Positions 6,001 through 9,000 of a DNA stretch of 33,926 nucleotides are shown piece by piece (position 1 is the stretch's first letter; the number at the start of each line of letters is the position of its first letter). A program made the position numbers. This DNA is from a virus (lineage: Duplodnaviria; Heunggongvirae; Uroviricota; Caudoviricetes): positions 1-33,926 of the IMG/VR virus record IMGVR_UViG_2671180296_000010. One strand, written 5' to 3'.

Positions 6001-9000
6001 ATCCCGGGAGGTAAACGGGCATTTCAGTTCAAGGCCGTTGCCGTCACTGCATAAACCATCGGGAGAGCAGGCGGTGCGCATACTTTCGTCGCGATAGATG
6101 ATCGGGGATTCAGTAACATTCACGCCGGAAGTGAATTCAAACAGGGTTCTGGCGTCGTTCTCGTACTGTTTTCCCCAGGCCAGCGCCTTAGCATTAACTT
6201 CCGGAGCCACACCGGTGCAAACCTCAGCCAGCAGGGTGTGGAAGTAGGACATTTTCATGTCAGGCCACTTCTTTCCTGAGCGGGGCTTTGCTATCACGTT
6301 GTGAACTTCTGAAGCGGTGATGACGCCGAGCCGTAATTTGTGCCATGCATCATCCCCCTGTTCGACAGCTCTCACGTCGATCCCGGTACGCTGCAGGATA
6401 ATGTCCGGTGTCATGCTGCCACCTTCTGCTCAGTGGCTTTCTGTTTCAGGAATCCAAGAGCTTTCACTGCTTCGGCCTGTGTCAGTTCTGACGATGCGCG
6501 AATGTCGCGGCGAAATATCTGGGAACAGAGCGGCAATAAGTCGTCATCCCATGTTTTATCCAGGGCGATTAGCAGAGTGTTAATCTCCTGCATGGTTTCA
6601 TCGTTAACCGGAGTGATGTCGCGTTCCGGCTGATGTTCTGCAGTGTATGCGGTATTTTCGACAATGCGCTCGGCTTCATCCTTGTCATAGATACCAGCAA
6701 ATCCGAAGGCCAGACGGGCACACTGAATCATGGCTTTATGACGTAACATCCGTTTGGGATGCGACTGCCACGGCCCCGTGATTTCTCTGCCTTCGCGGGT
6801 TTTGAATGGTTCGCGGCGGCATTCATCCATCCACTCGGTAACGCAGATCGGATGATTACGGTCCTTGCGGTAAATCCGGCATGTACAGGATTCATTGTCC
6901 TGCTCAAAGTCCATGCCATCAAACTGCTGGTTTTCATTGATGATGCGGGACCAGCCATCAACGCCCACCACCGGAACGATGCCGTTCTGCTTATCAGGGA
7001 AGGCGTAAATTTCTTTCGTCCACGGATTAAGGCCGTACTGGTTGGCGACGATCAACAATGCGATGAACTGCGCATCGCTGGCATCACCTTTAAATGCCGT
7101 CTGGCGAAGAGTGGTGATCAGTTCCTGTGGGTCGACAGAATCCATGCCGACACGTTCAGCCAGCTTCCCTGCCAGCGTTGCGAGTGCAGTACTCATTCGT
7201 TTTATACCTCTGAATCAATATCAACCTGGTGGTGAGCAATGGTTTCAACCATGTACCGGATGTGTTCTGCCATGCGCTCCTGAAACTCAACATCGTCATC
7301 AAACGCACGGGTAATGGCTTTTTTGCTGGCCCCGTGGCGTTGCAAATGATCGATGCATAGCGATTCAAACAGGTGCTGGGGCAGGCCTTTTTCCATGTCG
7401 TCTGCCAGTTCTGCCTCTTTCTCTTCACGGGCGATCTGCTGGTAGTGACGCGCCCAGCTCTGGGCCTCAATCCGATCCTGGATGTAATAAGCGTTCATGG
7501 CTGAACTCCTGAAATATGGCTGTGCGAATACCGCCCGCGTAATGCCAGGCTGATTGATCAAATGGGAAAGGGGATTAGTGATTCAGGCCGTTGCCGCGTC
7601 CGTCGAGAAAAACTTCCACGAGCAAATCACGGGTATAAGTGCGCTCGATGCCGCGATGCAGATAAAGCCGTCCGCGTAAATTAGCTGATGCAGTCCAGGT
7701 ACCATCTTTGTGTTTGACCAGCATTCCTGGCATGACCGCACCTCGATTAACGGTCTGCGTTCCGTAATGTTGATGAACCATAAAAACTCCTGCCCGTAAG
7801 CTGGGCTGCTGAACATATAGAGACTTCTGCGCGTATTCAGGCGGTGGATGGCCGCCGGTTGTCATAACTAAGCTGCCTCGTTGAAGCGACTGAGGTATGA
7901 GGTGTTGAGTTGAGTTGATTTCAGCTGGTCACACCGACGTTCACGCGTCCGCTTCACCCCTCGCACTTCCCGGAGCCTGCTGAAATTCAAGCTGCGGATC
8001 TAAGCGGTCATCGCAACGGTGAATCAGGTGGTTGCCGTATCGTTGTGTTGTTGCGATGAATTTATTTAAAACTATAGTTGTTTTGTCGTCAACAACAAAA
8101 GTTGTTTTATTGGGTTTTTTAGATGTAAATGGTTGTATTTAGGATGGATTTATTTTGTGACTTGCATCGCATAGCGATAACTGAAGCGAGGTTGTGGTGG
8201 TTTTTTGAACAGTATACGTGATGAGGGGAGGGGACAAAAGAAAACCCGGCACGGTGGCCGGGCTAGATCTTAAAGTATTTATCTTTTAGAGATGTAGATG
8301 CAAAATTTTTTGCCTTTGAAAATTTTTTGTCATCAGAAGAGCTTGTGAACTCATCTTTTTTGTAGGGAACCGCTAATGCTGCATCACGTCTGCGAGGCAG
8401 CTTGCTTACTTCCTCGCACTTTTTCATGATCAGTTATCCTTTAATAACCTATACAGTTTTGTAGGGGTACATCCTGAGGATATTGTTAAGTTCGTAGCAC
8501 GCCTTTTCCGCCCACCATCGTATAAACGAAAACCAGTAGTAGACGAATTTTCTGCGTCAAAAACTATAGACAGTATAACGTCCCCAGACTTTTTTTGCCA
8601 TTCATATGTGCCGTTAGTTGGTTTTGTCATCTGTAGACGCCAGTCAAGAACGCCATCACTTATAGCTGAGAGATCGTTTAGTACGTCTAGTACGGATTGA
8701 TATCTTTCATTTGGATCTACATGAATGCATTTGTTTACTATTGTTATCAATTTTTTATGTATGTGGGAAGGATACTCTTTTAATGGATAGGAGCCATCAA
8801 TTATCGACTCTCTGAGTTGTTCAATCGTTCTAAATGCAGATCTTTCTCTTTCAAAATTATCATATCCAACACACATTCTATATATGGTTAATCCTGCCTG
8901 ATATATGTCATATGTGAAATTATAATCATTTGTTGATAAAGAAAAATATTCCGGTGGCACATGAAAATGATATCCAAACTCAGGCGCAGCTCTCGATTCC

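What the first reader, a model, noticed from the sequence alone, without database searches (positions are those of the whole stretch)
8263..8427. Unannotated 54-aa lysine-rich ORF translationally coupled to the kinase stop and capped by the operon terminator
This ORF is below the 60-aa cutoff of the ORF track and was found by hand. Its ATG sits 2 nt after the kinase TGA with an AAGGA SD, and its TAG stop abuts the terminator hairpin, a layout that argues for a real, co-expressed small protein. It is highly charged (about one quarter Lys/Arg plus an acidic/Ser cluster SSSDDKK) with no TM segment. Small basic peptides coupled to an enzyme are typical of regulators, antitoxin-like inhibitors or substrates/decoys; a Ser/Thr-rich tail could be a phospho-acceptor for the adjacent kinase.
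Basis: partly seen in the sequence, partly recalled or inferred. Interest (0 to 1): 0.55.

Follow-up and report, generated by a model that had tools for sequence, protein, structure and literature searches.

The report
Small partner gene of prophage kinase Stk
The 54-codon reading frame is a real, conserved gene already catalogued as hypothetical protein L0081 of Shiga-toxin phage 933W; it is the last gene of a three-gene cassette built around the phage-exclusion kinase Stk, and its role, probably controlling or serving that kinase, has never been tested.

Summary
The sequence-level observation is correct. On the minus strand at 8263-8427, a 54-aa basic ORF starts 2 nt after the kinase stop, has AAGGA 9 nt upstream, and its TAG sits in the terminator stem.

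It is not new. It is an allele of 933W L0081 (annotated 1999, phrog_4063), and the exact protein is RefSeq WP_171821331.1, "hypothetical protein".

It is a genuine gene:
- The frame shows purifying selection (pN/pS 0.13-0.35, third-position bias, no stops).
- A 50-63 aa basic ORF is coupled to the kinase stop in every one of about 20 kinase lineages examined, down to 39% kinase identity. These include Acinetobacter, Pseudomonas and a Bacteroidota contig.
- In each case the cassette is a RuvC-fold protein, then the kinase, then the small ORF.

The conserved parts are an N-terminal P-R-R-R-D-A-A-L-A-x-P-Y segment and a C-terminal K-Y-F-K motif.

No database gives a function. My best inference, untested, is a dedicated Stk-binding regulatory subunit or substrate that helps keep this abortive-infection kinase silent in the lysogen. 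Interest is moderate: known ORF, unknown function, and a conserved three-gene architecture I could not find described.

The parts
8263..8427 (-). Small ORF, 54 aa plus TAG. Allele of 933W L0081 / phrog_4063; exact protein WP_171821331.1.
   Evidence: ORF; phrog_4063, E 5e-37, full length; L0081 annotation; exact match in RefSeq; purifying selection in this frame only.
8362..8397 (-). Codons 11-22, P-R-R-R-D-A-A-L-A-V-P-Y. This is the most conserved segment of the protein and the candidate docking or acceptor segment.
   Evidence: Invariant or nearly invariant columns in A1 and A2. For codons 1-27, window vs L041, there are 9 synonymous against 3 non-synonymous changes. The motif [KR]-R-[DE]-x(3-5)-A-x-P-[YS] persists in kinase lineages of 47-58% identity.
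8266..8289 (-). Codons 47-54, L-K-D-K-Y-F-K-I. Conserved C-terminal aromatic motif.
   Evidence: L47 and K50 are invariant; Y51 and F52 are at least 90% conserved. Synonymous codon variation (TAC/TAT, TTT/TTC, AAG/AAA) occurs among loci. An aromatic [YF][FLI] motif near the C-terminus also appears in distant positional equivalents.
8437..8441 (-). Shine-Dalgarno AAGGA, inside the last codons of the kinase, 9 nt before the ATG.
   Evidence: Purine-rich equivalents sit at the same place in diverged loci. The junction is not unusually structured, z = 0.94.
8233..8264 (-). Intrinsic terminator (tM/tRM of the repressor operon): hairpin 8243-8264 plus a U-rich tail.
   Evidence: Annotated as terminator tM in 933W and tRM in phi24B. 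Equivalent hairpins lie 0-35 nt after the small ORF in 10 diverged loci.
8430..9476 (-). Stk, a eukaryotic-like protein kinase of 348 aa, 97% identical to 933W Stk. Non-RD catalytic loop HFDIKPNN, with a C-terminal beta-rich domain.
   Evidence: Pfam Pkinase E 1e-46; phrog_2361; 933W stk annotation; alignment to CaMKI.
9470..9931 (-). RuvC-fold protein of 153 aa (933W L0083), first gene of the cassette. It overlaps the kinase start by 7 nt.
10012..10767 (-). CI-type repressor (HTH plus S24 peptidase). It heads the lysogenic operon that carries the cassette.
   Evidence: Pfam. PGAP annotates an S24 family peptidase in the 99.3%-identical genome. The same layout is found in all enterobacterial loci.
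8237..9994 (-). Extent of the mobile cassette (RuvC-fold gene, stk, small ORF, terminator). It is shared at 96.8% identity with 933W, whose repressor and N regions differ. GC is 36-37% against 48% for the window.
   Evidence: match limits; GC.

Best explanation
Shown:
- The ORF is a translated gene under purifying selection.
- It is the third and last cistron of a conserved three-gene cassette: a RuvC-fold protein of about 150 aa, the Stk kinase of about 345 aa, and a small basic protein of 50-63 aa.
- In lambdoid prophages this cassette sits behind the cI repressor gene and ends at the operon terminator, the same place where lambda carries rexAB.

From the literature:
- stk is co-transcribed with cI in the lysogen.
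- Stk has little or no activity in uninfected cells.
- Stk aborts infection by phage HK97.

Inferred mechanism:
- The small protein is a dedicated subunit of the kinase module.
- It is a largely unstructured, basic peptide made in step with Stk by termination-reinitiation at the TGAtcATG junction.
- It binds Stk through its conserved N-terminal R-R-[DE]...A-x-P-Y segment, in a substrate-like or pseudosubstrate-like way, and through its C-terminal K-Y-F-K motif.
- It thereby helps hold this non-RD, potentially constitutively active kinase silent until a superinfecting phage protein displaces it or it is lost.
- Whether it inhibits, is phosphorylated (Tyr22), or both, is not resolved.
For: Gene reality:
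- Frame-specific selection in four independent pairs: pN/pS 0.13-0.35, third-position changes 22/39, 13/19, 13/22 and 21/44, and zero stops. The other frames give 0.26-3.6 and nearly all contain stops.
- Length stays at 53-55 aa across 19 clusters at 40-96% identity.

Tie to the kinase:
- A small basic ORF starts -29 to +10 nt from the kinase stop in all lineages examined.
- These are 12 IMG/VR lineages with 47-82% kinase identity, Tatumella, Proteus, Acinetobacter and Crocinitomicaceae, and Pseudomonas, Pseudoalteromonas and two metagenome contigs.
- The Pseudomonas pair shows 22 of 32 differences at third positions.
- The profile search finds the family only as free-standing 50-55 aa proteins.
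- The three genes share a low GC of 36-37% and move as one block between different immunity regions.

Peptide character: AF2 gives no globular fold, with pTM 0.28 and short helices at 13-18, 30-44 and 47-51. pI is 9.6-10.4 throughout the family.

Kinase needs restraint:
- The HFD catalytic loop is non-RD.
- It is co-transcribed with cI and aborts HK97 infection (PMC3564112; PMC3430580).

Tyr22 is invariant in the close family and is Ser in one diverged member. The residue after R-R-[DE] is Ala in most members but Ser in some.
Against: - There is no direct evidence of binding, inhibition or phosphorylation.
- No complex prediction could be run.
- Stk lacks the acidic residues that AGC/CaMK kinases use to read P-2/P-3 arginines: HFDIKPNN against HRDLKPEN, and HNGS against GGE. 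A textbook basic pseudosubstrate fit is therefore not supported.
- The N-terminal motif is not recognisable in the most distant positional equivalents (Acinetobacter, Pseudoalteromonas, Bacteroidota). Their homology to this ORF is positional only.
- Pairwise-distance correlations do not single out the kinase over the RuvC-fold protein as the partner.
- As far as I recall, published work on Stk exclusion did not report a need for this ORF. I could not read those papers.
- Proteomics of a phi24B lysogen did not report it, but a 6-kDa pI-10 protein was outside the gel range used.
Confidence: 0.4

Rival explanations
1. Phospho-acceptor or effector. The small protein is the dedicated physiological substrate of Stk. 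Once the kinase is triggered, it phosphorylates the invariant Tyr22 (or Tyr51), and the modified or released basic peptide executes or relays the abortive response.
For: - Tyr22 is invariant in 19 family clusters and in lineages with 48-58% kinase identity. It is replaced by Ser, another acceptor, in L092.
- Stk is described as a tyrosine kinase (title of Tyler & Friedman 2004, cited).
- The disordered basic peptide is made stoichiometrically with the kinase.
Against: - No acceptor residue can be aligned in the distant positional equivalents.
- There is no phosphoproteomic evidence.
- By my recollection, Stk is reported to cause phosphorylation of many host proteins, so a single dedicated substrate is not required.
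Confidence: 0.2
2. Partner of the RuvC-fold protein, or a nucleic-acid-binding adaptor. The Lys/Arg-rich peptide binds DNA or RNA, or the catalytically altered RuvC-fold protein. It takes part in sensing phage DNA structures rather than touching the kinase.
For: - The RuvC-fold gene is as invariably present as the small ORF.
- The small protein has pI about 10.
- Distance correlations with the small protein are 0.84 for the RuvC-fold protein and 0.88 for the kinase domain, so they do not discriminate.
Against: - The small ORF is translationally coupled to the kinase, not to the RuvC-fold gene.
- No known nucleic-acid-binding domain is detected.
- The conserved residues are a specific Pro/Ala/Tyr motif rather than a generic basic patch.
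Confidence: 0.15
3. Independent accessory ('moron') peptide. It happens to share the operon and has a function unrelated to Stk.
For: - Lambdoid repressor operons collect unrelated accessory genes (PMC3564112).
- No functional annotation exists in Pfam, NCBIfam or PADLOC.
Against: - It is never found without the kinase, and the kinase is never found without it, in any lineage examined across several orders and one other phylum.
- Start-stop coupling is conserved.
- In other phages the terminator is reused behind a different cargo that lacks the ORF body. The ORF therefore belongs to the kinase cargo, not to the backbone.
Confidence: 0.07
4. Not a gene. It is a chance open frame, or sequence conserved for RNA or terminator reasons.
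For: - It is short, and it is uncalled by PGAP in the closest genome and by gene callers in some distant loci.
- The last 22 nt travel with the terminator in phages that lack the cassette.
Against: - The substitution pattern is frame-specific and protein-like.
- The amino-acid sequence is conserved at saturated synonymous divergence.
- There is no Rfam match; the best is FsrA at 17 bits against an 80-bit cutoff.
- There is no open frame on the opposite strand.
- The chance probability of the open frame is about 0.02 per locus, yet it is present in every lineage.
Confidence: 0.02

Closest known systems
933W L0081 (AAD25426.1; UniProt Q8X4A3; WP_000745483.1; phi24B vb_24B_12c; PHROG 4063)
   Same: It is the same gene: 91% amino-acid identity, the same 54-aa length, the same position between stk and terminator tM, and a 96.8% identical cassette.
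   Different: The window allele differs at a few residues (C4, T28, S30, N41, A43). It sits behind a different cI repressor and next to a different N/pL region. The family has no assigned function anywhere.
Lambda RexA/RexB and other accessory exclusion genes of the cI (pRM) operon, such as 434 Hex
   Same: It has the same genomic slot, between cI and the operon terminator next to pL. It is expressed in the lysogen, and it serves abortive exclusion of heterologous phages.
   Different: The proteins are unrelated. Here the parts are a kinase, a RuvC-fold protein and a small soluble basic peptide, not an ion-channel-type pair.
Pseudosubstrate kinase inhibitors (PKI, PKA regulatory subunits, CaMK autoinhibitory segments)
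   Same: - It is small, heat-stable-like and largely disordered.
- It has an Arg-Arg-x-Ala-(small hydrophobic) run, R13-R14-D15-A16-A17.
- The closest solved kinases by sequence are CaMKI, PKA and PDK1.
   Different: - There is no sequence homology.
- Stk lacks the acidic P-2/P-3 readers of those kinases.
- Ala16 is Ser in some relatives.
- The resemblance is functional speculation only.
Kinase toxin-antitoxin modules (HipBA, HipBST) and reverse-order type II TA pairs
   Same: A growth-arresting kinase is encoded next to a small co-translated protein. The role is abortive infection, and the module is mobile and low in GC.
   Different: - The kinase is a Hanks-type kinase, not HipA-type.
- The small protein has no HTH/RHH DNA-binding domain.
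- The operon is driven by the phage repressor promoter rather than autoregulated.
- A third, RuvC-fold gene is always present.
- Toxicity of Stk without the small ORF is untested.
Single-gene kinase defences (Staphylococcus Stk2; PADLOC PD-T4-6; MADS Mad6)
   Same: A Hanks-type kinase domain is used in phage defence. Stk hits these PADLOC models at E 1e-36 to 1e-48.
   Different: The hits cover only the generic kinase domain (residues about 20-275). No model covers the small ORF or the RuvC-fold gene. This cassette is a fixed three-gene unit.

Membership tests
L0081 / PHROG 4063 small-protein family | Full-length sequence match to the family profile | tested here: met
   phrog_4063, E 5.4e-37, residues 1-54 of 54. 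It is 91% identical to 933W L0081. The exact sequence is WP_171821331.1.
L0081 / PHROG 4063 small-protein family | Position immediately downstream of stk and upstream of the repressor-operon terminator | tested here: met
   and 90 of 91 IMG/VR loci.
Protein-coding gene (as opposed to a chance ORF) | Purifying selection specific to the reading frame | tested here: met
   pN/pS is 0.13-0.35 in frame 0, with zero stops and third-position bias, in 4 independent pairs. The other frames are higher and nearly all contain stops.
Protein-coding gene (as opposed to a chance ORF) | Direct evidence of translation | not testable with these tools
   No Ribo-seq or proteomic data were reachable. The 2D-gel study of a phi24B lysogen covered pH 3-7 only and did not report it.
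Type II antitoxin | Adjacent to and co-transcribed with a growth-arresting toxin | tested here: met
   There are 2 nt between the kinase stop and the ATG, and a shared terminator. Stk causes abortive infection.
Type II antitoxin | DNA-binding domain (HTH, RHH, AbrB and similar) for autoregulation | tested here: not met
   There is no Pfam, NCBIfam, PADLOC or PDB hit. The AF2 model has no such fold.
Type II antitoxin | Neutralises the toxin by direct binding; deleting it is toxic | not testable with these tools
   This needs genetics or biochemistry. Natural truncated variants turned out to be contig-end artefacts.
Pseudosubstrate kinase inhibitor (PKI-like) | Basic residues at P-3/P-2, a non-phosphorylatable residue at P0 and a hydrophobic P+1 | tested here: inconclusive
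   R13-R14-D15-A16-A17 fits, and A16 and A17 are conserved in at least 90% of 19 clusters. P0 is Ser in L088, L093 and P0022, and the pattern is absent in distant equivalents.
Pseudosubstrate kinase inhibitor (PKI-like) | The kinase carries acidic residues that bind P-2/P-3 arginines | tested here: not met
   Stk has HFDIKPNN and HNGS where CaMKI has HRDLKPEN and GGE. This is invariant across the Stk family.
PADLOC PD-T4-6 / MADS Mad6 defence kinases | Match of the whole protein or system to the model | tested here: not met
   Only the generic kinase domain matches, at 124-165 bits. The NCBIfam MAD6 score is 114 against a cutoff of 460. The small ORF has no hit.
RuvC Holliday-junction resolvase (neighbouring gene) | RuvC fold | tested here: met
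   [not shown]
RuvC Holliday-junction resolvase (neighbouring gene) | Four catalytic carboxylates (D7, E66, D138, D141 in E. coli RuvC) | tested here: not met
   An invariant Arg7 aligns with D7. The D138 equivalent is variable. Only E68 and E140 are invariant. The residue mapping rests on a weak profile alignment.
Intrinsic (Rho-independent) terminator | GC-rich hairpin followed by a U tract | tested here: met
   An 8-bp stem with 6 GC pairs, then TTCTTTTG. Equivalents are present in 10 diverged loci.

The most novel reading that the evidence does not exclude
The Stk phage-exclusion kinase, studied and catalogued as a single gene, may really be a three-component system conserved from Enterobacterales to Acinetobacter, Pseudomonas and Bacteroidota. 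In this reading the parts are a catalytically altered RuvC-fold sensor, a non-RD Hanks kinase, and a 50-60 aa basic peptide. The peptide is the switch: a substrate-like safety catch on the kinase, released by the infecting phage.
Probability: 0.3. Interest if true: 0.65.

Novelty: already known. Interest (0 to 1): 0.4.

Why it matters
Stk of phage 933W is one of the oldest examples of a prophage kinase that kills an infected cell to block a rival phage. How it is kept silent in a healthy lysogen and switched on by HK97 has not been explained.

This work shows that the kinase never travels alone. It always comes with a RuvC-fold protein upstream and a tiny basic protein downstream, which points to two obvious candidates for that control. 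Both are absent from current defence-system catalogues, and gene callers often miss the small one. A start-codon knockout of a 54-codon gene would test the idea directly.

The cassette is also common in Shiga-toxin prophages of pathogenic E. coli.

Tried and rejected
Searches on the small protein that gave no function:
- Pfam, NCBIfam and PADLOC returned no hit.
- A PDB sequence profile gave one chance hit at E 8.5.
- Foldseek of the AF2 model against PDB gave 0 hits.
- Rfam on 7800-8800 gave only sub-threshold chance hits.
- tblastn against phages and plasmids found only the same family.
- The one partial plasmid hit (CP043018) is a frameshift-ridden copy of the same cassette.

Collection scan: a scan of species-representative genomes with the small-protein alignment found nothing. 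The kinase scan there found only Tatumella and a 366-bp contaminant-like contig.

Literature:
- Nothing was found for L0081, vb_24B_12c or the protein accessions.
- The key Friedman-laboratory papers were not held.

Analyses that led nowhere:
- C-terminally truncated variants (P0013, P0015) looked like natural knockouts next to intact kinases. They end at contig ends, so they are assembly artefacts.
- Kinase frameshifts with an intact small ORF say nothing about dependence.
- Mirror-tree correlations among the three proteins do not discriminate partners.
- Classical basophilic pseudosubstrate docking was considered and down-weighted.
- The Ser cluster as acceptor was rejected for lack of conservation.

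Not attempted: a complex prediction of kinase plus small protein.
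Full report
**1. The observation**

The feature lies on the minus strand. The ORF 8263-8427(-) encodes 54 aa, MKKCEEVSKLPRRRDAALAVPYKKDEFTSSSDDKKFSKAKNFASTSLKDKYFKI.
- The upstream 348-aa kinase ORF (8430-9476) ends with TGA at 8430-8432. Two bases (TC) separate it from the ATG.
- AAGGA lies 9 nt upstream of the ATG, inside the last kinase codons.
- An in-frame TAA three codons upstream means no alternative start exists.
- The TAG overlaps the foot of an 8-bp, 6-GC hairpin followed by a U-rich tail.
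- The protein is basic (15 K+R, pI 9.8) and hydrophilic.
- An open frame this long is expected about 2% of the time at this composition.

**2. It is not unannotated in the wider sense**

- Window 8237-9994 is 96.8% identical to phage 933W and some 40 other Stx phages.
- In AF125520 (933W) the ORF is CDS L0081, "hypothetical protein". The hairpin is annotated as terminator tM, the kinase as stk, and the upstream gene as L0083.
- phi24B calls it vb_24B_12c. RefSeq O157:H7 genomes call it WP_000745483.1. PHROGs has it as family 4063, unknown function, with a full-length match at E 5e-37.
- The exact window protein is WP_171821331.1. The 933W allele is UniProt Q8X4A3 and occurs on more than 1000 contigs.
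- PGAP does leave it uncalled in the closest complete genome, NZ_CP063476.1, at 99.3% identity.

**3. It is a real gene**

- Homologues from E. coli, Salmonella, Klebsiella, Serratia, Enterobacter and others are 40-96% identical and almost all 53-55 aa.
- Four independent pairs with unsaturated synonymous divergence give pN/pS of 0.13-0.35 in this frame. Third-position changes are 22/39, 13/19, 13/22 and 21/44, and there are no stops.
- The five other frames give 0.26-3.6 and nearly all contain stops.
- In the first 27 codons, window vs L041, there are 9 synonymous against 3 non-synonymous changes.
- There is no Rfam family and no opposite-strand ORF to explain the conservation.

**4. It belongs to the kinase**

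I fetched loci encoding kinase relatives and looked directly downstream.
- In 12 IMG/VR lineages with 47-82% kinase identity, a 50-59 aa ORF starts between -7 and +10 nt of the kinase stop. It begins MKK or MRN and keeps a motif [KR]-R-[DE]-x(3-5)-A-x-P-Y. The Tyr is Ser in one lineage.
- The same holds in Tatumella and Proteus.
- In kinase lineages at 39-48% identity, a 50-63 aa basic ORF again starts at -29 to +2 nt of the stop. These are Acinetobacter, Pseudomonas, Pseudoalteromonas, a Crocinitomicaceae contig and two metagenome contigs.
- Gene callers often missed that ORF.
- Similarity of those distant ORFs to the window ORF is limited to an MK[KN] start, a pI of 9-10 and a C-terminal aromatic [YF][FLI] motif. 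Their homology is therefore positional, not proven.
- The two Pseudomonas alleles differ mostly at third positions, 22 of 32.
- Every locus also has a gene of 145-155 aa overlapping the kinase start.
- In Enterobacterales a cI-type repressor lies upstream on the same strand, and an intrinsic terminator lies 0-35 nt after the small ORF.
- The three genes share 36-37% GC against 48% for the window.

**5. Cassette and backbone**

- The terminator and its leftward flank (8150-8265) occur in more than 2100 E. coli genomes. Only 223 also carry the kinase side.
- Stx2a phages that carry a methylase plus a 317-aa protein in this slot keep the terminator and the last 22 nt of the small ORF.
- So the terminator is a backbone feature, the three genes are exchangeable cargo, and the small ORF is part of that cargo.

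**6. What the partners are**

The kinase:
- It is a Hanks-type kinase, Pkinase E 1e-46, and 97% identical to 933W Stk.
- Its catalytic loop HFDIKPNN is of the Ser/Thr type and non-RD.
- The closest solved kinases are CaMKI, Nek7, PKR, PDK1 and PKA.

From papers I could read:
- stk is co-transcribed with cI and aborts HK97 superinfection (PMC3564112).
- Its expression is controlled by pRM (PMC3430580).

The upstream protein:
- An invariant Arg sits where RuvC has its first catalytic Asp, and only two of the four carboxylates are conserved. It is probably not a canonical resolvase.
- A 17.1-kDa protein identified as "similar to p23 from 933W", whose gene lies downstream of cI, was detected in phi24B lysogens. 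Its mass matches the 153-aa L0083, and equating p23 with L0083 is my inference (PMC3342100).

**7. What the small protein looks like**

- Invariant residues in 19 clusters are M1, P11, R13, R14, A19, Y22, L47 and K50. Nearly invariant are K2, K3, R12, A16, A17, P21, F42, Y51 and F52.
- AF2 predicts an extended N-terminus with a one-and-a-half-turn helix at 13-18, and helices at 30-44 and 47-51. pTM is 0.28, so there is no globular fold.
- Nothing similar was found in PDB by sequence or by fold.

**8. Mechanism**

Shown: a selected, obligatorily kinase-linked small protein, co-transcribed and start-stop coupled.

Inferred: it is a subunit of the kinase module that binds Stk through its conserved N-terminal segment and C-terminal aromatic motif. 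It helps keep a non-RD kinase silent in the lysogen, with release on infection. I put this at about 0.4.

Alternatives:
- It is the dedicated Tyr22 substrate or effector (0.2).
- It works with the RuvC-fold protein or with nucleic acid (0.15).
- It is unrelated cargo (0.07).
- It is not a gene (0.02).

A textbook PKA/CaMK-type pseudosubstrate fit is disfavoured. Stk lacks the Glu residues that bind P-2/P-3 arginines, and Ala16 is Ser in some relatives.

**9. Comparison, novelty and verdict**

- The ORF is a member of the L0081 / PHROG 4063 family, so it is already known as an uncharacterised hypothetical protein.
- It works in the same genomic slot and logic as lambda rexAB. It resembles kinase toxin-antitoxin pairs and PKI-type inhibitors only by analogy, and defining features of those families were not met or could not be tested.
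- PADLOC and NCBIfam defence models (PD-T4-6, Mad6) match only the generic kinase domain and include neither partner gene.
- I found no paper that mentions the small ORF. The key subscription papers could not be read.

Verdict: observation confirmed. The function is still open and cheaply testable.

Noticed in passing
[not shown]
   Followed up: partly
window 9336-9343 (-), kinase codons 45-47: There is an A8 homopolymer (GAAAAAAAAGAA) in stk. Three independent IMG/VR contigs carry a frameshift exactly here while the small ORF and the RuvC-fold gene stay intact. This could be sequencing error, or recurrent slip-strand inactivation of a costly kinase.
   Followed up: partly
window 8237-8284; locus L097 2501-2548 (LC645409): The terminator plus the last 22 nt of the small ORF (…DKYFKI*) are also found in Stx2a phages, directly behind an unrelated methylase + 317-aa cargo. 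Window 8150-8265 occurs in more than 2100 E. coli genomes, while only 223 carry the kinase side. The cargo-swap junction lies inside the 3' end of the small ORF.
   Followed up: partly
window 8263-9931: The three cassette genes have 36-37% GC against 45% for cI and 48% for the window. This is consistent with a horizontally acquired unit.
   Followed up: yes
loci L103, L104, L105, L109 (Pseudomonas, Acinetobacter, Crocinitomicaceae); NZ_CP063476.1: The small ORF coupled to the kinase stop was not called by the gene predictors in these records. Automated surveys would therefore score the system as two genes or one.
   Followed up: yes
window 7830-7936 (+): There is a weak Rfam match to the ALIL pseudoknot, an IS3-type frameshift element: 25 bits against a gathering score of 50, E 3e-4. 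It is probably chance. The O157 relative has a real IS1203 with this element near the same region.
   Followed up: no
window 10012-10767 (-): The mechanical ORF for the repressor is 251 aa from the first ATG. PGAP annotates the near-identical gene as 229 aa (690 nt) in NZ_CP063476.1. The true start, possibly leaderless at pRM, is unresolved.
   Followed up: no
kinase residues about 305-312 (window about 8541-8564, -): The C-terminal domain of Stk carries a conserved R-[KR]-x-[ST] motif (RKRRATNL in the window). It resembles the R-R-R-D-A-A-L run of the small protein, with Thr where the peptide has Ala. This could be a substrate/pseudosubstrate pair or a coincidence.
   Followed up: no
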